Assembly (NCBI GenBank): GCA_009993885.1
Contig: JAACSN010000002.1
Location: forward strand, 69,979 to 133,978
DNA: 64,000 nucleotides
Direction of reading: 5' to 3'
Source: Alphaproteobacteria bacterium
Lineage (GTDB): Bacteria; Pseudomonadota; Alphaproteobacteria; Caedimonadales; UBA9215
In this document: positions 5,883 through 52,123 of the stretch, piece by piece
Numbering within the stretch: the first letter of the stretch is position 1
Layout: each line of letters starts with the position of its first letter
Made by a program: the position numbers and the translations under genes
The notes under the pieces: model-generated
Database searches by the model: none
Told to the model about the DNA's origin: nothing
The model's input: only the letters and a program-made list of their open reading frames with translations

Positions 5883-7172
5883 TTAAGCCACCTTTGCAAT
5901 TTCTGCCAGCGCCTTTTTTGCATCGGAATCACTGATATGTTTTTGAGACTGAAGCTTTAGGCGCAAACTATGCCGAATGTTCTCTTTTTGCTCCGGCGTC
6001 GCCTCCAAGCGATGGATCATATTTTTAATATGCAACCCCATATGTCCTTGGATAATACCTTCGGATACAAGGGCTCTGAGAGCCCCTAAGTTTTGCAGCA
6101 AACCGACACCGGCAATCAAACAAGACAACTCGTTAGAACTTGGATTTCCCAGACATTTCAAGACCAACTGCGCCGTCGGATGGCGGCGTGTGACGCCTCC
6201 TACCGTCCCGACGGCAATGGGGCCTTTAAAGGTTCCAACCAAATCAGCACCTTGCATCTGCCATGTTGCCAGCGGTGCGTAAGAGGACGTTGCATCCTTC
6301 GTTGCTCCATAACTGTGCAACCCCGCTTCAACGGCTCGCCAGTCATTTCCCGTGGCAATCACAACAGCATCAATGCCGTTCATAATCCCTTTATTGTGGG
6401 TTGCCGCTCGATAAGGATCACATATCGCGAAATGAGACGCTTCTTCAATTTTATGTCCCAGTTCGGGATCAATATTTTCAAGAACAAGGTTAGCCGTTAT
6501 AAGTTTTTGATCGGTTAGGTTAGAGAGAATGCAAAGGGTCACCTTTTCATCGGTTTTTGCTTCAATATAGGGTTTTAAAAACTCACAAACTTGGGTGACT
6601 TGATTGGCTCCCATAGCCTCACAAGGATTAAGGCGGACGTGCAAAACGCCCATAACGCCCGAATCCTTTTGACGAGACAAGAGACGGAGATTAATGTCCG
6701 TCACCCCTCCTCCTCTTTGAAAAAGAGTAGCCGCAGGCCCCTTATTTGCAAGGTCAATCCATTCTCGAGTGGCGTCCCGAACGTGCCGTTGAAACCTTTC
6801 AGGATCCTTTAAGCTTGCAATTTGGATTTGCCCGATAACGGTTTGATCTTTTTGATCGCCGTTTATATGAGCTGTCAGCCGGCCGGAGCGCTCAACCCAC
6901 GAGGCCGTTTTATTGAGCGCCGCCACAACGGATGTTTCTTCTATTGCCAAAGGCACACAATAGGTTTCGCCGTTCATTGTAAGAGATTTTACAAGCCCTA
7001 GGGGAAGAGCAAAATAACCGAAGGGAGCTTCAATAAAGGCTTCGGCAAGCTCTAGATTTTGAGCCGGTGTTTCCAAAGCTTCTTTAATTTCCAAAAGGGA
7101 TAAACCTGTTTTTTCAACAAGGTAGTGCAAACGGTCTTCCAGGGTATAGCACGAGAATGCCTTAGGAGGCAT
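5883..7172 (-). CDS. mvaA: HMG-CoA reductase, class II
   Basis: Class II motifs AIEETSVVAA, CEAMGANQV and GTVGG. The ~430-aa soluble form has no membrane domain. Its start overlaps the mvaS stop by 11 nt (ATGCCTCCTAA). Confidence 0.85.
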   Translation of the reverse strand: MPPKAFSCYTLEDRLHYLVEKTGLSLLEIKEALETPAQNLELAEAFIEAPFGYFALPLGLVKSLTMNGETYCVPLAIEETSVVAALNKTASWVERSGRLTAHINGDQKDQTVIGQIQIASLKDPERFQRHVRDATREWIDLANKGPAATLFQRGGGVTDINLRLLSRQKDSGVMGVLHVRLNPCEAMGANQVTQVCEFLKPYIEAKTDEKVTLCILSNLTDQKLITANLVLENIDPELGHKIEEASHFAICDPYRAATHNKGIMNGIDAVVIATGNDWRAVEAGLHSYGATKDATSSYAPLATWQMQGADLVGTFKGPIAVGTVGGVTRRHPTAQLVLKCLGNPSSNELSCLIAGVGLLQNLGALRALVSEGIIQGHMGLHIKNMIHRLEATPEQKENIRHSLRLKLQSQKHISDSDAKKALAEIAKVA

Positions 7173-8337
7173 GGCGGAACCCTCGCTTATTTTGCAACAA
7201 TTCAGCAGCCGGAAATCCGCTTTTCACGGCCTGATTGCGCGTCCTGAAAGAGTCATAATCTTGAGCGCTTAACCGAGTCCTTTGAGAAAAATCCTCCTGA
7301 AGATCCTGAGCCCACGCCGCCGCCTGTGCCTCGGGTCCTGCGGTTAAGAGTTGTAATTCCGCACCACAGCCGGAACCGTAGGAAAAGGCACTAATTTGCT
7401 CGCCGATTCGTCGACCGCAAAGGTTTTGGGCAACAGAAAACCAAAGACTTGCCGTCATAGAGTTGCCGATTTTTTGATTCCAAGTCAGATGGGGTGCAAC
7501 CTTTTCAAGGAAAAGCTCTTTTGCCTTGTTCGGATTTCCTGCGGTAATTTCAGCTTTCTCACAAAGAACACCCAAGGCTTTTTGTACCATTTTAGGAAAA
7601 GGCGTATGAAAACTCATCCCCTTAATATTTTCAAGGAAATTCCCAAGGGTTTGGTTTGTGTCCTCACAATAGGCTTGAAAGCAAGCCAAAGCACCTTGGT
7701 TATAACATTCAAGACTTAAGGGGCCGTCCACATGGGGGTAAGGCTCTCCGACAGGGCGCCAAAAATCATCGGCAGGACGACTCCAAGAATGGGAACAAGG
7801 ATCCATTTCAGCGATTAAAGGCTCATCCACAATCATGGCAACGGCTCCGGCACCTTGGGTCGGCTCTCCGGGGCTTCTCGCCTCGTAAAGGGTATCATCC
7901 ACAGCAATCACAAGGGCTGCTTTTCCTTTTGAGGCCGGCGAACAGCGCCACTCATAGGCCTGACGTAAAGCAAGGGTTCCGCCAAGGCACGCATGCTTTA
8001 CTTCATAGGAACGCAGCGCGCCTGACAATCGCAACTCTCGAGCCACCCATTTGGTCAAAGGAGCACTCATATCTAATCCGGATTCGGTTCCGATAGCCAA
8101 AAAACCAATTTGATCGAGCCCCCCCTTTCGGCGCATAAGTGCGCGCCGCGCAGCCCCAAGGGCAAGGTCAACAACCGTGTGTTGGTCAAGGCATAAAGCC
8201 ATTTCACGGCAACCCAGACCGATTTCGTACTTATTCGGATCTGTATTTCGTAAGTGTGCAAAATCCTTTAAATCTAAAAAGAACGATGGAATTTTCAAGC
8301 CAAGAGAGGCAATACCGACGGGTTCGGATAGGCGCAT
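7162..8337 (-). CDS. mvaS: HMG-CoA synthase
   Basis: Thiolase-fold condensing enzyme with the catalytic-Cys context EVKHACLGGTLAL. It is ~390 aa and directly coupled to mvaA. Confidence 0.85.
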   Translation of the reverse strand: MRLSEPVGIASLGLKIPSFFLDLKDFAHLRNTDPNKYEIGLGCREMALCLDQHTVVDLALGAARRALMRRKGGLDQIGFLAIGTESGLDMSAPLTKWVARELRLSGALRSYEVKHACLGGTLALRQAYEWRCSPASKGKAALVIAVDDTLYEARSPGEPTQGAGAVAMIVDEPLIAEMDPCSHSWSRPADDFWRPVGEPYPHVDGPLSLECYNQGALACFQAYCEDTNQTLGNFLENIKGMSFHTPFPKMVQKALGVLCEKAEITAGNPNKAKELFLEKVAPHLTWNQKIGNSMTASLWFSVAQNLCGRRIGEQISAFSYGSGCGAELQLLTAGPEAQAAAWAQDLQEDFSQRTRLSAQDYDSFRTRNQAVKSGFPAAELLQNKRGFRHAS

Positions 8338-10383: not shown

Positions 10384-10809
10384 AATTTCCGTCTTTAAAA
10401 GAAACGTCCTCCTATCAAAGGGGGGCATTTCATCAACAGGATTTCTTTCCTTTCAAAAATACTCTCTTTGTGCTGTAAAAATAAATTCCCTTTCTTTTTC
10501 ATAAAAATTTTTTTTTGCATATTTTTTTTCCGATTTATTAGAATCCTTTAAAAACTTAAGGATTTTTGAAGCAATTTTAGGTCTTCCTACAAAGGCTAAC
10601 TCTTTGACATCCCTTGCGAAAAGGAAATTCGAGACTATTTTTCAGTCTCTTTTCTATTAGAAATAATTGTTTCTAAAATTAACCTTCTGTTAACATCTTT
10701 TTTTGCTTTTTAATTAAAAAAATCCATAATATTTACTTCTTTTTAATAAAGTTGCTGTTTAATGAAACTATGCAATAAGGCAAAACCCAGAAAAAAATAG
10801 GGGGAAAAC

Positions 10810-12708
10810 ATGACAACTATACAACAGAAACTGGAAGTAGTACGTCCGCCACGGGTGAAAATCAGGTATGATGTTCACACAGCAGGGGCTATCGTCGTTA
10901 AAGAACTACCGTATGTTCTTGGCATCATGAGCGACCTGTCTTGCCAATCAGAAGTGCCAAAAGCACCATTCCGTGATCGCAAGTTCGTTGATGTTAGACC
11001 GGATACCTTAACAGATATCATGGAATCTATTCGTCCGAAGGCAATTTTCAATGTTCCGAATCGTTTTACAGAAAAGGGAAAAATTTCCATTGATCTTCTT
11101 TTCTTAACCATTGATGATTTCGAGCCCATTTCCATCATCAATCAAGTTCCCGAGATGAAAGTAAAGTTTGAATCACGTGTTAAACTGAACGATCTTCTTG
11201 CGAAACTTGACGGTAACGCCGATTTGAACGTCGTTATGGATGCGGTTCTTGCCGGTGAATCCAAAACAGCGGATCAAATTGTTGAAGAAGGAAAAATGAT
11301 TCGTGAAGACGCTCAGAAAGCTTATGCTCTTGAACTTGTCGAAGAATTCTTGACTAAAATTGCGAAAGCCGGCGAACATAGCAGTGCTATCACAGCCGTT
11401 AGTGCGGAAGTTGGCCAAATTGACCTAGACCTCTCAGAGCAACTGGACGAAATTCTTCATGCTCCGGAGTTCCAAAAAGTCGAAGGCACATGGCGCGGCT
11501 TGTTCTATCTGGTAACAGGAACGGACATCGGCGCACGTGTTAATGTTCGTTTGTTCAATACCACAAAACAAGAATTGGCTTACGACCTTGAAAAAGCTGT
11601 TGGTTTTGACCAAAGCCAGCTCTTTAAAAAAGTCTATGAAGAAGAATACGGTACCTTTGGCGGTAATCCTTATTCCTTCTTGATGAGTGACTTTGAATTT
11701 AGCCGTACGCAATTCGATATCGAACTTCTTGGTAAAATTTCAGAAGTGTCAGCCGCTGCCCTTGCTCCTTTCATTGCAGGCGCAAACCCCGGTTTGATTG
11801 ATCTTGATACCTTTACGAACCTCGGAAACATTCGCGACGTTGCGACAGTCTTCCAAAGCACAGAACTCGGTAAATGGATGAGCTTCCGTGAGACAGACGA
11901 ATCTCGCTATGTAGCCCTTACTCTTCCTCACGTTTTGTCCCGTGCCCCTTATGGCAAGGACACAAATCCTGTGGACGGTATGAACTACGAAGAGGGCGTT
12001 GACGGAACAGACAACAGTAAATTCTCTTGGATGAGCTCTGCTTGGGCCATGGCCTTGAGAATTCTTGAAGCCTGTAACATGCACGGCTGGCCTGTGGCAA
12101 CACGGGGTGTTGAAAACGGCGGTCTCGTTCGAGGTCTTCCTTACTACACCTTTAAAACAACAGACGGTGATGTTGCTTTGAAATGCCCGACTGAAGTTGC
12201 AATTACGGATCGTCGTGAAAAAGAATTGTCAGACCAAGGTTTGATCGCTCTTGTTCACTGTAAGAACCGTGACTATGCGGCCTTCTTCGGATCACAAACC
12301 ACTCATAAGCCTCTGTTGTATAATACGGACGAAGCCAACTCTAACTCACAGTTATCTGCTCGTTTGTCTTACATCATGGCTGCCAGCCGCTTTGGTCACT
12401 ATATCAAAGTGATGATGAGAGATCGCATCGGTAGCTTTATGGAACGTGAAGATGTTGAAAGATATCTTAACGGTTGGCTTGCCCAATACATCTTGCTTAA
12501 TGCCCGCCCAACGGAAGGTATGAAAGCCAAGTATCCTTTGAAAGCAGGTCGTGTAGATGTGGTTAATGTGCCCGGAGATCCCGGAAACTATAAAGCGGTC
12601 GTGTTCTTACGTCCACACTTCCAACTTGAAGAATTAACAGCATCCCTTCGCTTGGTTGCAGATTTGCCCAAACCTTACCACGAGCAAATCTTGTCCGATC
12701 TGGCTTAA
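10810..12708 (+). CDS. tssB-tssC: Fused T6SS contractile sheath protein (an N-terminal TssB/VipA module joined to TssC/VipB in one ORF)
   Basis: Residues 1 to ~150 match TssB (RVKIRYDVHTAGAIVVKELPYVLGIMSDL; DRKFVDV; LFLTIDDFEPISIINQVPEM). The rest matches TssC (LDEILHAPEFQKVEGTWRGL; EEEYGTFGGNPYSF; APFIAGANP; RYVALTLPHVL; PTEVAITDRREKELSDQGLIAL; LRPHFQLEE). The ORF is uninterrupted, with GGGGAAAAC upstream of the ATG. Confidence 0.85.
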   Translation: MTTIQQKLEVVRPPRVKIRYDVHTAGAIVVKELPYVLGIMSDLSCQSEVPKAPFRDRKFVDVRPDTLTDIMESIRPKAIFNVPNRFTEKGKISIDLLFLTIDDFEPISIINQVPEMKVKFESRVKLNDLLAKLDGNADLNVVMDAVLAGESKTADQIVEEGKMIREDAQKAYALELVEEFLTKIAKAGEHSSAITAVSAEVGQIDLDLSEQLDEILHAPEFQKVEGTWRGLFYLVTGTDIGARVNVRLFNTTKQELAYDLEKAVGFDQSQLFKKVYEEEYGTFGGNPYSFLMSDFEFSRTQFDIELLGKISEVSAAALAPFIAGANPGLIDLDTFTNLGNIRDVATVFQSTELGKWMSFRETDESRYVALTLPHVLSRAPYGKDTNPVDGMNYEEGVDGTDNSKFSWMSSAWAMALRILEACNMHGWPVATRGVENGGLVRGLPYYTFKTTDGDVALKCPTEVAITDRREKELSDQGLIALVHCKNRDYAAFFGSQTTHKPLLYNTDEANSNSQLSARLSYIMAASRFGHYIKVMMRDRIGSFMEREDVERYLNGWLAQYILLNARPTEGMKAKYPLKAGRVDVVNVPGDPGNYKAVVFLRPHFQLEELTASLRLVADLPKPYHEQILSDLA

Positions 12709-12742: not shown

Positions 12743-13345
12743 ATGGCACAAGTACTAACAGAACAAGCCGTAGGTCTACCGCTAGAAAGGATTTCCGGCA
12801 CAGCACACGGCTCTGAAGCCTGGGCTAGCAACCGTGTCGGCGAGCAATATGCCGGCGCAACGAAATCCGGTAATGTCTTTTGTAAGATTGAAATCGCCGG
12901 AAACGTTGTGACTAAGTCTGAAACGGAAGGATTTGAAGAGTGGACGACCCTTGCCTCTATGAATATCTTGGATATCGTGCGGCAAACCAATCCTAATCCG
13001 ACCAACGATAAAATCGAATCAGGTCGTGTGATTGTTCAAAACACACCTCTTTTGATTCCACACGAAGGAAACTCCATTGACCTTGCAAAGGCTCTCATTG
13101 ACGGATCACAAGTTAATGTCTATGTCACACGTATCGGTCACTTCAAAGGAGAGCAAAGATTGCCTATTGAAGAGTACACTTTTACAAACTGTGCAATTCA
13201 AAGGCTTCAGGATAAAGGAGATATGCTCTCTGTTACTTTCCGAGCAACAATCATCAAGAAAATTATCAACTCTTATGATAAAGAAGGAACAAAGCTAGGT
13301 ACTGCCGAGTTCACTTATGATCTTGCTCTAAACAAAGTTGAGTAA
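12743..13345 (+). CDS. hcp: Hcp-like T6SS inner-tube protein with an N-terminal extension of ~40-45 aa
   Basis: An AAGGAG RBS lies upstream. From about residue 45 the sequence follows the Hcp pattern (VFCKIEIAGNVV..E..EW; a later block EYTFTNCAIQRLQ; C-terminal SVTFRA...EFTYDLALNKV). It occupies the position between the sheath gene and tssE. Confidence 0.6.
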   Translation: MAQVLTEQAVGLPLERISGTAHGSEAWASNRVGEQYAGATKSGNVFCKIEIAGNVVTKSETEGFEEWTTLASMNILDIVRQTNPNPTNDKIESGRVIVQNTPLLIPHEGNSIDLAKALIDGSQVNVYVTRIGHFKGEQRLPIEEYTFTNCAIQRLQDKGDMLSVTFRATIIKKIINSYDKEGTKLGTAEFTYDLALNKVE

Positions 13346-13415: not shown

Positions 13416-13488
13416 TGAAAAGCTTTTTAGAGAGGTAAAGTCTATGAATATCCGACAGAAAAAAAAGAGATTTGAAAAAGGAGCCCCG

Positions 13489-13932
13489 ATGCCCCTTTTT
13501 GATCGTTTAATTGACGAAGAACCTCACATTCGCAATGAACTTATTACAAAGAATTTCCTGCATGATGAAGAACTTCAACTTTCCATCGGTCAAGAACTCT
13601 CTAATATTTTAGACACCAGAATTGGTTCGGATGTAGATTGGCCGGAAGACTCGGATCATGACGCTGTGTTCTTGCCCGAGCAGTTTGGCTTACGAGACTA
13701 TGCGGGACTTTTTGCTCAATCGGACAGCGGCAAGCGAGAAATTGCCTCTCACGTTCGAGCAGCGATCTTACGCTTTGAACCTCGTTTACAAAACCCGCGG
13801 GTTCAAATTACCGAAGCTCATGCAGAAAGGTTTGATGTGACCGTTGCGATTACCGGAGATGTTGTCATTGATGACATCCGCAAAAAAGTTCAGTTTCCCA
13901 TGATCTTGCACAACATTATGACACGCGTCTAA
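13489..13932 (+). CDS. tssE: T6SS baseplate wedge protein TssE (gp25/GPW family)
   Basis: Motifs PLFDRLIDEEP, ELSNILDTRIG, FGLRDY and AILRFEPRLQNPRV. I prefer the ATG at 13489, which is preceded by AAGGAG; the alternative start is 13444. Confidence 0.8.
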   Translation: MPLFDRLIDEEPHIRNELITKNFLHDEELQLSIGQELSNILDTRIGSDVDWPEDSDHDAVFLPEQFGLRDYAGLFAQSDSGKREIASHVRAAILRFEPRLQNPRVQITEAHAERFDVTVAITGDVVIDDIRKKVQFPMILHNIMTRV

Positions 13933-14025
13933 TATGCCCGCCCCCTCATCATGCTCTTTTGGCGACATATAGTCATTCCAAACGCTTCCCGGACGTCCTC
14001 GTCGGCGTCTGCCTTTTTAAAAAGA

Positions 14026-21735: not shown

Positions 21736-23145
21736 ATGATTAAAGCACTATCTAAAACGCTATTTATTACTTTTTTTCTCTTTAATTTCATCAAAATCAA
21801 CCCTCTTTATGCAAGCTCAGAAGAAAAATTAGACAAAAAAACAGTTCCTTTTCATTTTAAACTGGGCGCCGGTGATCCTACGGTAGCAAACGATAACGGC
21901 ACTGAAGCCAATTTATTCATGTTTAATATACCCTGCGTGGTGTCTCCGGATACGTCAAAGTGGTTCCCTTTAGGGTTCGATACGACGCGTACTGTAAAAC
22001 ACCATATGGGTGCTCTTCCAAGCCTGTCTCTCAACCCGACTACGAATATTTTTTTAGAGCACCTCCAATTGGCTTTCTTACCGCAAATTAAAAAGGGAGG
22101 AAGACTCTCACAAGAAGAAACCATTTTCTCTAAAACCTTTAATAGGCTCATGCCAAATGATCCGACAGGTCATGTCGGATGTCACTTTTATATGCCGGAA
22201 GAAATAGCAGAGGGCGCCGGAATCGTCTTACTTTTACCCGGCAGTAAAGGCGCACGGTTTTCTGAAATTGATCGTGCATTAGCCTATGCAAGGCAAGGGA
22301 TACCCTGCCTCATTCCTGACTTTATCTCAACAGCCAAAACAAATAAAACACTCCGCGGGAACTCTACTATTCAAAATCAGCTTGCGGTCAGTTTTTTTGG
22401 AAACGCCCTAAGTATCCTTTTGCTCCATCATGTTCTCCAAGACTGGGATGCTATCGACCCGACAAAAATTGTTTGGGACTGTGAATCTATCGGTGCAACC
22501 CAAGCGCTTCTTGCTCTTTCCCCGGAAGTTATCGCCAAATTCGAAGAAGATTTTATTCCCCCTACCTTTATAGCCCTGAATGATTTTGCCCCTGTTTTAA
22601 TAACAAGCGGCATACAAGACTCTCCTTTTTGGACTATTCCTAAAACGATTTGGGGCGGGACGGCAGACGAATTTACGCCTCTTTCACAGATTGAAGACTT
22701 TTTAAGTCGTGGTCCTGAGATACAAGCAACAACCCTTATAAAACATGACGGTTACCATGATGCACGCTCCCTTGATGAGGATACACTCCATCAAGAAGGC
22801 GGCACCTATGAGCTTAAAGATGCAACGAATTATACGGGACTTTGTGCTTATATGACACCCTCTGTAGACGAGGTCAGAAAAACCGTTGAGGGCCTCGACA
22901 TTGGCGCAGAGGAAGGGGAGATTATGGGCGCACTTGAAATCCCTTTTAATAACTCCAGGCTCCATTTAGAATTAGAAAATGTCGACCTTGCCCCTCAAGA
23001 AGTAGCGCGTCGTGTTACTCAATTACCGAAGGGGGCAATTTTCGGCCCTACATCAAAGGAAAAAGCTGATGAATTGCGAAGTGAGGTCATAGCTGCTGTT
23101 CTGAAATACGCCAAGCCTTCTCTTGAAGACGCAATAGACTTTTAA
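21736..23145 (+). CDS. Hypothetical secreted protein (469 aa)
   Basis: Has a GGAGG RBS and an N-terminal signal peptide (LFITFFLFNFIKINPLYASS). I recognise no motif securely, and a possible hydrolase-like core is only a guess. Confidence 0.5.
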   Translation: MIKALSKTLFITFFLFNFIKINPLYASSEEKLDKKTVPFHFKLGAGDPTVANDNGTEANLFMFNIPCVVSPDTSKWFPLGFDTTRTVKHHMGALPSLSLNPTTNIFLEHLQLAFLPQIKKGGRLSQEETIFSKTFNRLMPNDPTGHVGCHFYMPEEIAEGAGIVLLLPGSKGARFSEIDRALAYARQGIPCLIPDFISTAKTNKTLRGNSTIQNQLAVSFFGNALSILLLHHVLQDWDAIDPTKIVWDCESIGATQALLALSPEVIAKFEEDFIPPTFIALNDFAPVLITSGIQDSPFWTIPKTIWGGTADEFTPLSQIEDFLSRGPEIQATTLIKHDGYHDARSLDEDTLHQEGGTYELKDATNYTGLCAYMTPSVDEVRKTVEGLDIGAEEGEIMGALEIPFNNSRLHLELENVDLAPQEVARRVTQLPKGAIFGPTSKEKADELRSEVIAAVLKYAKPSLEDAIDF

Positions 23146-49975: not shown

Positions 49976-52123
49976 GTGTGCCCTATGCCCTCTTCTGCTC
50001 CTAAAACACCAAGCAACACACCTTGCAAAACCTCTCTATCTCAACCGGCAACACTTTTTTCCATTTTTACAATCTTTCTTTTTACACTCGTCCTTGCCGT
50101 TCCTCTTTTAGGTCTGCCTCCCTTTCGTTACGGCTGGTATACGCAACTCGAGCTCCTAACCGCCGGCTTCTGGTTCACCGGAGGCCTTGCAGCCCTATGG
50201 AATATTGCTCTTTTCAAAAAAAAGAGCCCCCTGGCAAGATACCTGTGGTCTATGCCTGTTGTTTGGAGCTGGATCCCCGTTATCATCCTCTCTACGATCG
50301 TTTCTTTTTTCCAAATAGCTCCCTTACAGTCTTGGTCCGGAAGTCCCCAGCTGGGAGACGGCATAGCAACTTTCCTCAGTCTTCTTTTTTTATCCCCCCT
50401 TTTTGTTCTAGTAGGTCGGCAACATAAATTAAAACCGTGGCTCTTGTGGGTCCCGGCAGCAGTTGCGATCCCCTTATCCGTTCTCACGATACTTGGCGCT
50501 TACGGCACCCCTGTTCATTCTTTAAGATTTTGGGAATGGGCGCCGATGTTTTTCCCCGATTACATCACTTTCTTTGCCTTATCCCTTGGCGTTATTTATT
50601 GGTATACGAGGCCTTATTTCGCAAAAAAATACCTCTTAGATATCTTCTTTACGCTCATCATCGGACTGATTATTTTTTATGCAAAGAACACGACAATTTA
50701 CATAGGGCTTGCTCTCTCTCTTTTTACCTATGGTGTTCTGAAACTCCCCCTTTTCAAAACAATCCCCGCCGAAAAAAGACTGGCCTATTATGCAGGGGCA
50801 GGCCTTTTGACCTTAACCCTCCTGATTTGCCTGACAAATTTTGTAAGGGACGATTTACCCGCAACTTTCTCAAGCCTTATTAGTCGAGCTCATATCGGTC
50901 AATTTACTTTTATTCAATACTTTTACGGCGACATCACCGCTTCAAAAATACTCTCGTTTCTTTTTGGGAACGGTTGGGGCGATTATAATAATGCCGCCGT
51001 CTCCAATCTTAGCCTTACCCAAGATTTCCAACTCTTTACAGGAGATACACATCAATCAACCCTAGAATTTGTTTACCGAGACCAAGTCAACAGTCACAAT
51101 ATCTTCCTTGAATATTTTCTGGCTCTTGGGTTTGCGGGCTTCCTCCTTTTTTGCTACCTCCACTACAAGATCATCTCGAGCTTAAGAAAATCCTATCTCT
51201 TTATCGGCACCGTCTTTATTATTACCCTTGGAACATTGCTCATTTTCTGGTTTCAACTTCCCCATACTCTTATTGCCGTCACATCGGCCTATTGCCTCCT
51301 TTTTTCAAAAACACCCTCGGCAAAACAACATAACTCGGCAAAACAACATAATAGCTGCCTTAACAAATTTCTCCCCTTGGGAGCTCTTTTTTCAGCAGCA
51401 ATTCTCTTTACCTTTTCTTTGGCACAAGGCCTCTCGGCTTACCAATATACACAGAAAGTTTCCGGCAGATTAAGCAACGACCTTTTCCAAAAAATTGAGG
51501 AGGTCACAACCACAAAATGGCTGTTATATGATCACCTAACCGGTGCCCACCGCTCAAGACAAATCCTTCAAGGCCTTTGTGGGGATATTTTTATTTACCT
51601 GTCAAAATCCCCTAATCCTAAAACACAAGAAGCCGGAGAAAACCTCCTAAAAATCACCGCACATCTTCAAAAGGACATTCCTGAAGGAAGTAGCTTCACC
51701 TCTCTTATCCTAAGCCTCAATAGCTTATCCAAGTTTGCAAACCATCCTACAACAAAGCCCCTTTTTGATACGGATCCTCGTTATGAAAAAGCATGGCATG
51801 AAACAGCGCAACTCGTCGCCCGCCGTCTTCCCTATAGATCGGACTTATTCACCCCTTATTTTTCATACCTTCTTACAACAAAGCAGGGAGACGACCTAAA
51901 AAAACTAGCCGCTTACTTTATTTCAAAAAAAAGGACAGACCCCTTGGCTCACTGGTTTTTAGGGGCCTATTATTTACAAGATCCTTCAGAATTTGACAAA
52001 GGCATTTGCTTAATGAAACAAGCCCTTGATAACGGCATCGCAAAATATATTCCCTTACCGCCGAAACAAATTGAGCAAATCCAACAAGCAGCCTCACAGA
52101 TCCAATGCTATAAACTTTTATAG
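49976..52123 (+). CDS. Large polytopic Wzy_C/O-antigen-ligase-like membrane protein with a C-terminal soluble helical domain
   Basis: The first ~440 aa contain many TM helices and a loop with SHNIFLEYFLALGFAG (Wzy_C-like). The C-terminal ~250 aa is soluble and helical. Confidence 0.65.
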   Translation: MCPMPSSAPKTPSNTPCKTSLSQPATLFSIFTIFLFTLVLAVPLLGLPPFRYGWYTQLELLTAGFWFTGGLAALWNIALFKKKSPLARYLWSMPVVWSWIPVIILSTIVSFFQIAPLQSWSGSPQLGDGIATFLSLLFLSPLFVLVGRQHKLKPWLLWVPAAVAIPLSVLTILGAYGTPVHSLRFWEWAPMFFPDYITFFALSLGVIYWYTRPYFAKKYLLDIFFTLIIGLIIFYAKNTTIYIGLALSLFTYGVLKLPLFKTIPAEKRLAYYAGAGLLTLTLLICLTNFVRDDLPATFSSLISRAHIGQFTFIQYFYGDITASKILSFLFGNGWGDYNNAAVSNLSLTQDFQLFTGDTHQSTLEFVYRDQVNSHNIFLEYFLALGFAGFLLFCYLHYKIISSLRKSYLFIGTVFIITLGTLLIFWFQLPHTLIAVTSAYCLLFSKTPSAKQHNSAKQHNSCLNKFLPLGALFSAAILFTFSLAQGLSAYQYTQKVSGRLSNDLFQKIEEVTTTKWLLYDHLTGAHRSRQILQGLCGDIFIYLSKSPNPKTQEAGENLLKITAHLQKDIPEGSSFTSLILSLNSLSKFANHPTTKPLFDTDPRYEKAWHETAQLVARRLPYRSDLFTPYFSYLLTTKQGDDLKKLAAYFISKKRTDPLAHWFLGAYYLQDPSEFDKGICLMKQALDNGIAKYIPLPPKQIEQIQQAASQIQCYKLL
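51316..51351. repeat. Perfect 18-bp tandem duplication inside the Wzy_C-like CDS
   Basis: CTCGGCAAAACAACATAA occurs twice and encodes SAKQHN-SAKQHN at the TM/soluble domain junction. Confidence 0.9.

What the first reader, a model, noticed from the sequence alone, without database searches (positions are those of the whole stretch)
10810..12708. Single-polypeptide T6SS sheath: an apparent natural TssB-TssC (VipA-VipB) fusion
Seen in the sequence: one uninterrupted 632-codon ORF. Its first ~150 residues read like a complete small sheath subunit (RVKIRYDVHTAGAIVVKELPYVLGIMSDL, DRKFVDVRPDTL, LFLTIDDFEPISIINQVPEM, LNDLLAKLDGN). From roughly residue 165-200 onward it reads like the large subunit (LDEILHAPEFQKVEGTWRGL, EEEYGTFGGNPYSF, APFIAGANP, RYVALTLPHVL, PTEVAITDRREKELSDQGLIAL, LRPHFQLEE). 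The junction falls at about nt 11250-11400. Established knowledge: canonical T6SS sheaths are built from two separate proteins. The free N-terminal helix of TssC is the ClpV docking site exposed after contraction. Phage and eCIS sheaths (gp18 type) are single chains. Inference: covalent tethering removes a free TssC N-terminus. The first ~30 TssC residues seem to be missing or replaced by a linker. That could mean ClpV-independent recycling, fixed 1:1 stoichiometry, or an evolutionary intermediate toward single-chain sheaths. I do not know of a characterised T6SS with this architecture, but I cannot search to confirm novelty.
Basis: partly seen in the sequence, partly recalled or inferred. Interest (0 to 1): 0.8.

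Follow-up and report, generated by a model that had tools for sequence, protein, structure and literature searches.

The report
Natural single-chain T6SS sheath protein
This gene really does encode the two proteins of the bacterial type VI secretion "spring" joined into one chain; the same fusion recurs in many bacteria whose gene clusters lack the ClpV recycling motor, which may help explain why the spring is normally made of two proteins.

Summary
Window 10810-12708 (+) is one intact 632-codon ORF. Residues 5-154 match TssB and residues 152-620 match nearly all of TssC. The two parts abut with no spacer.

It is not an artefact. The identical protein is on record in 73 blocks of the public collection, including two JGI metagenomes and NCBI assembly GCA_009995585.1. 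All 120 closest homologues are fused as well.

The gene heads a three-gene unit, tssBC - divergent hcp - tssE, set among housekeeping genes. This fits the scattered T6SS described for Holosporales.

The fusion recurs. It was found in 24 of the 80 best GTDB species loci, in at least four well-supported groups, one of which is made of marine Gammaproteobacteria and includes cultured strains. It is also present in 118 of the top 150 representatives at 50% identity.

clpV lies within the flanks of 32 of 39 split-sheath loci and 0 of 17 fused loci. The ClpV-docking start motif [L/I/V]LD is kept in 35 of 35 ClpV-linked split TssC, while LLD occurs in 0 of 25 fused proteins (TADQIV here).

Fusion alone does not block docking, because other fused sheaths keep LLD and sit beside ClpV-N-domain-TIR proteins.

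No paper describing a natural fusion was found. Verdict: a new variant of a known kind.

The parts
10384..10809 (+). AT-rich 426-bp intergenic region upstream of tssBC. It probably holds the promoter. A G-rich Shine-Dalgarno-like run (GGGGG, 10800-10804) lies 5 nt before the ATG.
   Evidence: Sequence read. The sigma-70-like sites found here are no more frequent than in shuffled sequence, so no promoter has been mapped.
10810..12708 (+). tssBC: a single 632-codon gene encoding a fused T6SS contractile-sheath protomer.
   Evidence: ORF and translation. HMM matches. The identical protein is in 73 collection blocks. All 120 best homologues are fused. AF2 model pTM 0.82. Foldseek matches TssC chains with TM 0.85-0.92 and also TssB chains.
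10822..11271 (+). TssB (VipA) module, residues 5-154. It includes the conserved N-terminal region RPPRVKIRYDV.
   Evidence: TIGR03358 at residues 5-154, model positions 1-151 of 160. PF05591 at 9-153. 9n4v_B residues 5-151. Residues 1-29 have low pLDDT in the monomer model.
11251..11298 (+). Junction, residues 148-163. A short loop (GESKTA) follows the last TssB helix and leads straight into the helix that aligns with the ClpV-docking helix of TssC. That helix reads TADQIVEEGKM here, against the LLDEIM/LLDxI consensus.
   Evidence: The HMM boundaries abut. Alignment to M. xanthus TssC 'LLDEILSEAKL' and A. vinelandii 'LDRIIAEGRM'. Motif comparison. Consensus taken from PMC5924787. Block-mean pLDDT across residues 131-220 is 81-96, with helices 137-147 and 154-160.
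11263..12669 (+). TssC (VipB) module, residues 152-620. It includes the conserved C-terminal region ELTASLRLVADLP.
   Evidence: TIGR03355 model positions 3-473 of 473. PF05943 and PF18945. 9n4v_A chain residues 20-490, E 1e-179.
12743..13345 (+). Divergent hcp (tssD) tube gene, 200 aa, with an N-terminal extension of ~43 aa.
   Evidence: Pfam T6SS_HCP is only weak (E 0.0073) and NCBIfam gives nothing. A profile of the 16 ORFs at this position in the alphaproteobacterial fused loci matches a canonical Hcp profile with hhalign probability 98.2%, E 3e-14, residues 44-199 against 3-163 of 165. It occupies the same position as hcp in related clusters.
13444..13932 (+). tssE (gp25-like baseplate wedge subunit), 162 aa.
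   Evidence: PF04965 GPW_gp25, E 8.4e-14. TIGR03357 TssE equivalog, 73.3 bits against a cutoff of 53.2.
13990..14011 (+). Terminator-like hairpin followed by a T-run, 58 nt after tssE. It may mark the end of the tssBC-hcp-tssE unit.
   Evidence: The number of such sites in the region equals the shuffled expectation, so this is weak evidence.

Best explanation
SHOWN:
- The gene encodes a genuine, conserved single-chain T6SS sheath protomer.
- The complete TssB core is joined directly to TssC from about its 20th residue. The two flexible tails that normally end TssB and begin TssC have been deleted.
- The junction is predicted to be an ordered helix-loop-helix within a helical region.
- The gene sits with a divergent hcp and tssE in a small unit among housekeeping genes. 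This matches the scattered T6SS described for Holosporales-type alphaproteobacterial symbionts.

INFERRED FROM HOMOLOGY:
- The protein polymerises around the Hcp tube on a TssE-containing baseplate, using the conserved N-terminal region of TssB and C-terminal region of TssC, and contracts to fire the tube.

INFERRED FROM COMPARATIVE DATA:
- The fusion arose from a split, i4b-like tssB-tssC pair. Such pairs can sit in the same frame one stop codon apart, so loss of that stop gives a fused protein. The spacer was later trimmed.
- This lineage's sheath is no longer serviced by a cluster-encoded ClpV through the canonical LLDEIM docking helix. Contracted sheath would then be cleared by a general unfoldase such as ClpB, as in Francisella, or simply not recycled.

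MY PREFERRED CAUSAL READING:
- Once ClpV is lost there is no longer any need for a separately threadable TssC, so fusions become tolerated and become fixed repeatedly.
For: The fusion is real and conserved:
- establish the ORF and the family matches.
- 73 collection blocks carry the exact protein.
- the 120 best hits, at 98-48% identity, all carry VipA, VipB and VipB_2 in one chain.
- 24 of the 80 best GTDB loci are fused within a single stop-to-stop ORF.
- 118 of the top 150 representatives at 50% identity are fused.

Fold: pTM 0.82; block-mean pLDDT across the junction region, residues 131-220, is 81-96; TssC chains TM 0.85-0.92.

T6SS context: hcp, tssE, the same order as P. aeruginosa hsiB3-hsiC3-hcp3-hsiF3, and the scattered loci reported for Holosporales (PMC8163844).

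Origin:
- in all 56 split loci tssB and tssC are in frame, and in 42 they are separated by one stop codon.
- relatives keep the full TssB tail, a low-complexity spacer and the TssC N-helix, whereas the window form is close to minimal.
- fused groups with 99-100% bootstrap support sit beside split lineages.

ClpV:
- clpV within the flanks in 32 of 39 split loci and 0 of 17 fused loci. clpV directly after tssG in 20 of 34 split loci and 0 of 5 fused loci.
- in fused clusters tssG is followed by vgrG or tssJ.
- [L/I/V]LD in 35 of 35 ClpV-linked split TssC, and LLD in 0 of 25 fused proteins.
- this helix is the ClpV docking site and sets ClpV specificity.
- the published T6SS gene table for the complete Ca. 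Bodocaedibacter genome has no TssH, yet TssB and TssC are split there. That fits ClpV loss coming before fusion.
- no ClpV- or ClpB-like ORF anywhere in the 64-kb window.
Against: - Genome-wide absence of clpV could not be tested for this organism or for any fused-sheath genome. Only +/-10 kb and this 64-kb window were visible.
- For the alphaproteobacterial groups the T6SS is scattered, so absence from the neighbourhood says little. The informative compact clusters number only 5-7 and belong to one clade, so there are few independent events (about 2-4). The Fisher p-values are not corrected for phylogeny.
- 7 of 39 split loci also lack a nearby clpV.
- Fusion is compatible with a ClpV-N-domain partner elsewhere, so fusion does not itself prove ClpV independence.
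- The helical region around the junction is fully retained, and residues D155 and I157 of the docking helix are kept.
- The in-frame, single-stop pattern may be inflated by the way the locus tool ranks hits.
- No expression or protein data exist for this gene.
Confidence: 0.65

Rival explanations
1. The fused sheath is still recycled by a dedicated ClpV encoded elsewhere in the genome. ClpV would dock either on the altered helix (TADQIVEEGKM) or through an adaptor, as TagJ does in some systems. On this view the fusion is unrelated to recycling.
For: - The helical region around the junction and the position of the helix are retained.
- Docking modes differ between T6SS subtypes, and some need TagJ (PMC5048182).
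- Fused sheaths with ClpV-N-domain partners exist.
- T6SS genes are scattered in this clade, so clpV could lie anywhere in the genome.
Against: - The T6SS gene table for the complete Ca. Bodocaedibacter genome lists no TssH.
- No Holosporales paper mentions ClpV in connection with their T6SS.
- The LLD consensus has been lost independently in each fused group, whereas it is invariant in ClpV-linked relatives.
- Compact fused clusters lack clpV exactly where their relatives have it.
Confidence: 0.15
2. The fusion is selected for its own sake. It guarantees 1:1 stoichiometry and co-translational folding of an interdigitated heterodimer, which would help at low expression or in chaperone-poor symbionts. 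Any loss of ClpV is coincidental.
For: - The fusion is deeply conserved, and in the window clade the linker has been trimmed to an ordered loop, which suggests optimisation rather than drift.
- T6SS transcripts are low in the related Bodo symbiont.
Against: - The fusion also occurs in free-living marine Gammaproteobacteria, so symbiont biology cannot be the general driver.
- Many fused relatives carry long, low-complexity, length-variable spacers of 30-210 aa, which looks more like tolerance than design.
- The vast majority of T6SS keep the split, despite a one-mutation path to fusion. That argues for a cost in ClpV-bearing systems.
Confidence: 0.17
3. Assembly or sequencing artefact, or a recent inactivating readthrough. 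A missed stop or indel would have merged two genes, as appears to have happened in one P. aeruginosa assembly.
For: - A sporadic HsiB3-HsiC3 merger exists in P. aeruginosa CP021775.1, inside an otherwise canonical cluster that has clpV.
- Split relatives are only one stop codon away from fusion.
Against: - The exact 632-aa protein is in 73 collection blocks from independent samples.
- The fusion is conserved from 98% down to 48% identity, with the tails deleted and no remnant of an intergenic region.
- The window clade has 100% bootstrap support and all its members are fused.
Confidence: 0.01
4. The protein is not part of a secretion machine. It would be a sheath-derived polymer used for something else, such as signalling or defence, like the orphan fused sheaths found next to TIR, caspase and STAND genes.
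For: - Such orphan fused sheaths exist.
- Only hcp and tssE accompany the gene in the window.
Against: - hcp and tssE are adjacent in the canonical order.
- Related Holosporales genomes hold the remaining T6SS core genes at other loci.
- No TIR, caspase or STAND genes lie near the window gene.
- The window protein lacks the LLD helix that the TIR-linked forms keep.
Confidence: 0.02

Closest known systems
Canonical two-protein T6SS sheath of the i4b-like type: TssB/TssC of Azotobacter vinelandii (PDB 9n4v) and P. aeruginosa H3-T6SS (HsiB3/HsiC3)
   Same: - Same two families over nearly their full lengths: TssC part E 1e-179 to 9n4v_A, TssB part E 1.4e-35 to 9n4v_B.
- Same fold.
- Same local gene order, sheath-hcp-tssE.
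- The conserved terminal regions and the helical region around the junction are retained.
   Different: - One polypeptide instead of two.
- About 36 residues of TssB tail and about 19 residues of TssC N-terminal tail are deleted.
- The docking consensus LLDxI reads TADQIV.
- No clpV follows tssG, and the cluster is fragmented.
Francisella T6SS-ii sheath IglA/IglB
   Same: - A T6SS of an intracellular bacterium with no ClpV gene in the cluster and no LLDEIM-type docking consensus.
- The sheath is disassembled by the housekeeping ClpB (PMC5924787).
- This is the best functional analogy for how a ClpV-less sheath could still be dynamic.
   Different: - IglA and IglB are separate proteins.
- Sequence similarity is much lower (E 3.5e-57 for IglB, E 8e-8 for IglA).
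- It belongs to a different T6SS class.
Single-chain sheaths of contractile phages, R-pyocins, Afp/PVC and other eCIS (T4 gp18 type)
   Same: - One chain per sheath protomer.
- No ClpV, because the device fires once (PMC5924787).
- Distant fold similarity of the core domains: Foldseek E 1e-6 to 1e-3, TM about 0.3.
   Different: - Not homologous at the level of sequence families.
- They lack the helical TssB-tail/TssC-head region found at the junction here.
- The window protein is a derived re-joining of TssB and TssC inside the T6SS-i radiation, not a retained ancestral single chain.
The Holosporales 'non-standard' T6SS described in the literature (Ca. Bodocaedibacter vickermanii; Holosporineae review)
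   Same: - Scattered loci including a [tssB-tssC-hcp] unit, a divergent Hcp, and no TssH listed (PMC8163844; PMC11909080).
   Different: - In Ca. Bodocaedibacter TssB (513 nt) and TssC (1455 nt) are separate genes.
- Neither paper mentions a fusion.
- The review regards the inner-tube component as apparently missing, whereas a divergent hcp is present here.

Membership tests
TssB / VipA small sheath subunit (TIGR03358, PF05591) | Sequence match to the family model above the curated cutoff, over most of the model | tested here: met
   TIGR03358: 126.2 bits against a cutoff of 97.25, model positions 1-151 of 160. PF05591: 131.6 bits against a cutoff of 24.
TssC / VipB large sheath subunit (TIGR03355, PF05943 + PF18945) | Sequence match above the cutoff covering both the N-terminal domain and the gp25-like C-terminal domain | tested here: met
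   TIGR03355: 619.8 bits against a cutoff of 271.5, model positions 3-473 of 473. PF05943: E 9.6e-115. PF18945: E 1e-42.
T6SS sheath protomer (structure) | The TssC and TssB folds as seen in cryo-EM sheath structures | tested here: met
   AF2 pTM 0.82. Foldseek: 5n8n_B, 9n4v_A, 5urw_1B and 3j9g with TM (normalised to target) 0.85-0.92; TssB chains 0.45-0.74. This is a monomer model only. Assembly was not modelled.
Canonical T6SS-i sheath architecture | Sheath built from two separately encoded polypeptides, TssB and TssC | tested here: not met
   A single uninterrupted ORF, conserved as such across the clade.
Bona fide T6SS locus (as opposed to an orphan sheath) | Co-occurrence with tube and baseplate genes | tested here: met
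   hcp-like gene (hhalign 98.2%) and tssE (TIGR03357 above its cutoff) lie directly downstream. The membrane complex, tssF/G/K/A and vgrG are not in the 64-kb window. Related genomes are reported to hold them at other loci.
ClpV-recycled T6SS | A clpV/tssH gene associated with the system | tested here: not met
   No ClpV- or ClpB-like ORF in the 64-kb window or within +/-10 kb of any of the 24 fused loci, against 32 of 39 split loci. This concerns the neighbourhood only.
ClpV-recycled T6SS | A clpV/tssH gene anywhere in the genome | not testable with these tools
   Only the window and 10-kb flanks can be read. The only indirect evidence is the T6SS gene table of the complete Ca. Bodocaedibacter genome, which has no TssH.
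ClpV-recycled T6SS | The ClpV-docking consensus (LLDEIM / LLDxI) on the TssC N-terminal helix | tested here: not met
   The window has TADQIV at the aligned position. The consensus is taken from PMC5924787. [L/I/V]LD is present in 35 of 35 ClpV-linked split homologues and LLD in 0 of 25 fused ones.
Phage/eCIS single-chain sheath (gp18 / Afp type) | Membership of those sheath families by sequence or by close fold | tested here: not met
   No Pfam or NCBIfam hit to phage sheath families. Foldseek gives only distant matches, TM about 0.3 and 8-12% identity.

The most novel reading that the evidence does not exclude
The two-gene split of the T6SS sheath is maintained by ClpV-mediated recycling. 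Wherever ClpV is lost, the one-mutation path from tssB-stop-tssC to a fused gene is no longer penalised, and single-chain sheaths evolve repeatedly. This would have happened in Holosporales-type symbionts and in a marine gammaproteobacterial clade. These are then naturally ClpV-independent T6SSs, either single-shot or ClpB-recycled, and the marine clade includes cultured members in which the idea can be tested. A corollary follows from the orphan modules. In them a fused sheath (with or without Hcp) is paired with a ClpV-N-domain-TIR protein, which suggests that docking onto the exposed sheath helix has been repurposed as an immune-type switch.
Probability: 0.4. Interest if true: 0.85.

Novelty: new variant of a known kind. 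Interest (0 to 1): 0.68.

Why it matters
Every characterised T6SS sheath is a TssB/TssC heterodimer, while phage and eCIS sheaths are single chains. As far as I know, why the T6SS sheath is split has not been settled.

This gene shows that a covalently joined TssB-TssC protomer is viable and has been conserved over long evolutionary distances. The comparative data link such fusions to two things: absence of a cluster-encoded ClpV, and decay of the ClpV-docking consensus. That turns a structural curiosity into a testable hypothesis about the coupling between sheath architecture and recycling.

It also corrects the picture of the Holosporales T6SS. The sheath is fused in many lineages, and a divergent Hcp is present.

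Finally, it identifies cultured bacteria (Marinomonas transparens C1424, Thalassomonas sp. RHCl1, Planctobacterium marinum K7) in which a natural single-chain sheath could be imaged and manipulated.

Tried and rejected
- **NJ tree of the TssC part of the 150 representatives.** It was star-like, with fused and split tips interleaved, and too divergent to support any claim about monophyly. I replaced it with a bootstrapped tree of 81 taxon-labelled sequences.
- **Extending the docking-motif test to all 150 representatives.** The first script failed. The second gave 7 of 122 fused against 10 of 36 split with an [LIVM][LIVM][DE] start. The N-helix does not align reliably at this divergence, so I treat this as suggestive only.
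- **Falsification attempts on fused proteins that keep LLD.** The contigs for P0179 and P0288 were only ~4 kb, and P0213 was not on record. P0323 and P0212 did give contexts.
- **Metagenome scan with the Thalassomonas TssM C-terminus, to see what lies beyond tssM.** It returned one irrelevant 1.1-kb hit. Whether clpV lies beyond tssM in those clusters remains open.
- **Promoter and terminator scan.** The counts were no higher than in shuffled sequence, so no regulatory claim is made.
- **Internal start at M163.** A purine-rich stretch precedes this codon. I rejected it as a conserved feature because the position is Leu in several clade members, and because an internal start would not release a separate TssB in any case.
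- **Literature searches for natural or engineered TssB-TssC fusions and for ClpV in Holosporales.** The only hits were GFP fusions or unrelated papers. Subscription-only papers are not covered.
Full report
**1. The observation**

Window 10810-12708 (+) is listed as a 632-aa ORF starting at ATG.

Pfam places three domains on it without overlap:
- T6SS_VipA at residues 9-153 (E 2.8e-38)
- VipB at 201-499 (E 9.6e-115)
- VipB_2 at 508-619 (E 1e-42)

The NCBIfam equivalog models are more informative about the boundary. TssB (TIGR03358) covers residues 5-154, which are model positions 1-151 of 160. TssC (TIGR03355) covers residues 152-620, which are model positions 3-473 of 473. The two modules therefore abut with no spacer.

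Against solved structures, the TssC part aligns to Azotobacter vinelandii TssC (9n4v_A) from chain residue 20 to 490 (E 1e-179). The TssB part aligns to 9n4v_B residues 5-151 of 187. What has been removed is the C-terminal tail of TssB (~36 aa) and the first ~19 aa of TssC.

**2. Not an artefact**

The identical 632-aa protein is indexed in 73 blocks of the public collection. These include JGI metagenomes 3300008095 and 3300025839 and NCBI assembly GCA_009995585.1, and the neighbouring genes are the same in each. The 120 best database hits, at 98% down to 48% identity, all carry VipA, VipB and VipB_2 in one chain of 622-762 aa. Where they carry names, these are Holosporales, Holosporaceae or Alphaproteobacteria MAGs.

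**3. Anatomy and context**

An AlphaFold2 model built on a 38-sequence family alignment has pTM 0.82. Apart from a four-residue stretch at 281-284, the low-confidence parts are residues 1-29 and 605-632. From what I recall of the published sheath structures, these correspond to the N-terminal TssB and C-terminal TssC strands that form the inter-subunit "handshake", which would be expected to be disordered in a monomer.

The junction is confidently helical, with block-mean pLDDT of 81-96 across residues 131-220. The last TssB helix (137-147) is followed by a six-residue loop (GESKTA). Then come a short helix (154-160) and three long helices that run to residue 237.

Foldseek matches TssC chains of P. 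aeruginosa, A. vinelandii, M. xanthus, V. cholerae and Francisella with TM 0.85-0.92, normalised to the target. It also matches TssB chains. Phage and eCIS sheaths match only distantly, at TM about 0.3.

Downstream lie two further T6SS genes:
- A 200-aa ORF at 12743-13345. Pfam sees it only weakly as Hcp. A profile of the 16 ORFs at this position in the alphaproteobacterial fused loci matches a canonical Hcp profile at 98.2% probability, E 3e-14.
- tssE at 13444-13932.

The rest of the 64-kb window is housekeeping: mevalonate pathway, thioredoxin reductase, cytochrome oxidase, dnaA, mreBCD-pbp2-rodA, lpt genes and an RND efflux system. It contains no other T6SS core gene and no Clp-type ATPase.

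This agrees with the literature on Holosporales. T6SS genes are reported to sit at four or more loci, one of them "[tssB-tssC-hcp]" (PMC8163844). The system is called "probably non-standard" (PMC11909080). Neither paper mentions a fusion. In Ca. Bodocaedibacter the two sheath genes are in fact separate, at 513 and 1455 nt.

**4. How widespread, and how it arose**

An exhaustive phmmer search of 1.84 billion cluster representatives returned 8269 hits. Of the best 150, 118 contain both a TssB and a TssC part in one chain. A fused query favours fused hits, so this is a lower bound on diversity and not a frequency.

A scan of one genome per GTDB species returned 80 best loci. By a stop-to-stop ORF test, 24 are fused and 56 are split. 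A bootstrapped tree of the TssC parts resolves four fused groups:
- The window clade, with Caedibacter-labelled and other alphaproteobacterial MAGs (100% support).
- Two further alphaproteobacterial/Holosporaceae groups (100% each).
- A marine group (99%) containing Thalassomonas sp. RHCl1, Marinomonas transparens C1424, Planctobacterium marinum K7, and Alteromonadaceae, Algicola, Woeseiaceae and SAR324 MAGs. This group sits beside the large split-sheath radiation.

Two split sequences fall among the alphaproteobacterial groups. The fusion is therefore recurrent (at least two origins, perhaps four or more) and derived.

The route is visible in the data. In all 56 split loci tssB and tssC are in the same frame, and in 42 they are separated by exactly one stop codon. 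The locus tool's ranking may favour such cases. Even so, it shows that dozens of species are one point mutation away from a fusion.

Family members document the intermediate states. Many keep the complete TssB tail, an Ala/Pro/Gly-rich spacer of up to ~100 aa and the TssC N-helix, giving proteins of 680-760 aa. The window clade is trimmed to near the minimum. One P. aeruginosa assembly (CP021775.1) shows a sporadic HsiB3-HsiC3 merger in an otherwise normal H3-T6SS cluster.

**5. The ClpV question**

[quoted passage not shown] That helix sets ClpV specificity (PMC5048182) and carries the consensus LLDEIM (VipB residues 19-24). Francisella lacks both ClpV and the consensus and uses ClpB instead. 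Single-shot phage-like devices need no ClpV (PMC5924787).

Using the P. aeruginosa H3 cluster proteins as probes, I found:
- A ClpV-like ORF lies within the flanks of 32 of 39 split loci that have at least 8 kb downstream, and of 0 of 17 fused loci (Fisher p 3.5e-9, uncorrected for phylogeny).
- In the compact fused clusters the order is tssBC-hcp-tssE-tssF-tssG followed directly by tssJ-K-L-M, or by vgrG and DUF2169/pentapeptide genes, sometimes with a sigma-54 activator upstream. Their split relatives have clpV after tssG (20 of 34 against 0 of 5, p = 0.02).
- At the aligned start of the docking helix, all 35 ClpV-linked split TssC have [L/I/V]LD, and 50 of the 56 split sequences read LLD.
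- None of the 25 fused proteins has LLD. Each fused group has its own replacement: TADQIV or DADKII in the window clade, ILKEMF in the long-linker group, and L(I/V)xRML in the marine group.
- The published T6SS gene table for the complete genome of Ca. Bodocaedibacter lists TssA, B, C, E, F, G, K, L and M, a TssJ-like lipoprotein, two VgrG, an Hcp-like and a PAAR-like protein, but no TssH. Its sheath genes are still split, which suggests that ClpV loss came before fusion.

**6. A natural control found on the way**

A few divergent fused sheaths keep an LLD-type helix. One of them (P0323, LLDQIF) is followed 26 nt downstream by a 334-aa protein. Residues 3-162 of that protein match a profile of ClpV N-domains at E 5e-64, and residues 181-316 are a TIR domain. 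It has no AAA+ modules.

This architecture forms a small family of ~17 clusters at 39-97% identity. In two further, divergent instances it again neighbours a fused sheath gene. One of these has hcp in between and lies in an island with TIR-STAND, HepT/MNT and transposase genes. None has baseplate or membrane-complex genes nearby.

Two consequences follow for the present finding. Second, the LLD helix is retained where such a partner exists, which makes its loss in the window lineage more meaningful.

**7. Best explanation and its limits**

The gene encodes the sheath protomer of a ClpV-less, scattered, Holosporales-type T6SS. It derives from an i4b-like split pair by loss of the stop codon and trimming of the tails. 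Polymerisation and contraction are inferred from the conserved terminal regions and the fold. ClpV independence is inferred from the correlations above.

The main limits are these:
- Genome-wide absence of clpV could not be tested.
- The number of independent fusion events is small.
- 7 of 39 split loci also lack a nearby clpV.
- There are no expression data.

The rival explanations were:
- ClpV encoded elsewhere in the genome.
- The fusion selected for stoichiometry or folding.
- An assembly or sequencing artefact.
- A non-secretory role.

I weighed these above. The artefact is excluded. The others are less likely but remain open.

**8. Novelty**

No paper in the searchable corpus describes a natural TssB-TssC fusion. 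Database annotation simply calls these proteins "contractile sheath large subunit".

I rate the finding as a new variant of a known kind. It is of real interest to the T6SS field because it bears on why the sheath is split, and because cultured carriers are available for experiments.

Noticed in passing
L091:4413-7467; L094:7543-10993; L095:7362-11026: A conserved module: a fused TssB-TssC sheath gene (with hcp in one case) sits next to a ~330-aa protein made of a ClpV N-domain (E 5e-64 against a ClpV-N profile) and a TIR domain, with no AAA+ modules. No baseplate or membrane-complex genes are nearby. The surroundings look like defence islands (TIR-STAND, Pkinase-TIR, HepT/MNT, transposases). 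About 17 protein clusters share the ClpVN-TIR architecture. This may be a sheath-based immune switch. I found no paper on it.
   Followed up: partly
L087:10001-12691: A family of ~896-aa proteins (P0185, 16 cluster members) consists of an unknown N-terminal extension of ~296 aa followed by a fused TssB-TssC. It is flanked by TIR_2, MoxR-like AAA, TrkA_N/RyR, TIR-TPR and SLATT genes, with no tube or baseplate genes within 10 kb. About ten other representatives share an N-terminal extension of ~300 aa. Others carry 450-1400-aa extensions with weak TIR, FGE-sulfatase or VWA hits.
   Followed up: partly
L092:7524-12431: In a Ca. Solibacter MAG, a fused sheath that keeps the LLD helix is preceded by a caspase-like (Peptidase_C14) fragment and a WD40 propeller. 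It is followed by ImpA_N and VasJ (TssA-like) ORFs. No hcp or baseplate genes are present.
   Followed up: no
L011-L086 (the 56 split loci): In all 56 split tssB/tssC loci among the 80 best GTDB hits, the two genes are in the same reading frame. In 42 of them exactly one stop codon separates the two genes. This may be a ranking bias of the locus tool, or it may be a real property of this T6SS subtype. Either way, it gives a one-mutation path to fusion.
   Followed up: partly
L006:6001-8052 (P. aeruginosa CP021775.1): One P. aeruginosa assembly has HsiB3 and HsiC3 merged into a 683-aa ORF. The merger reads through what looks like a frameshifted TssB tail and the intergenic region, in an otherwise canonical H3-T6SS cluster that has clpV and an intact LLDEII helix. 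It is either a sequencing indel or a very recent mutation.
   Followed up: no
P0159, P0165, P0186 (L088:830-3538); P0226, P0240, P0224: Some fused sheaths carry an insert of ~300 aa between the TssB and TssC parts. P0159 is one, and it sits in a normal clpV-less cluster: tssBC-hcp-tssE-tssF-tssG-vgrG-DUF2169. A few proteins of 1100-2150 aa contain two TssB and two or three TssC matches in one chain.
   Followed up: no
window 12743-13345: The tube gene of this clade is present but very divergent and carries an N-terminal extension of ~43 aa. It is detected only by profile-profile comparison. This qualifies the published statement that the Holosporineae T6SS apparently lacks the inner-tube component.
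   Followed up: yes
window 21736-23145 and 49976-52123: Two large ORFs (469 aa and 715 aa) have no Pfam or NCBIfam match. The second lies in the stretch with the strongest negative GC skew of the window (-0.26 at 50-52 kb), next to an autotransporter gene. They could be symbiont-specific secreted proteins or effectors.
   Followed up: no
window 5883-8337: HMG-CoA reductase and HMG-CoA synthase (mevalonate pathway) lie side by side just upstream of the T6SS unit. As far as I know this pathway is uncommon in Alphaproteobacteria.
   Followed up: no
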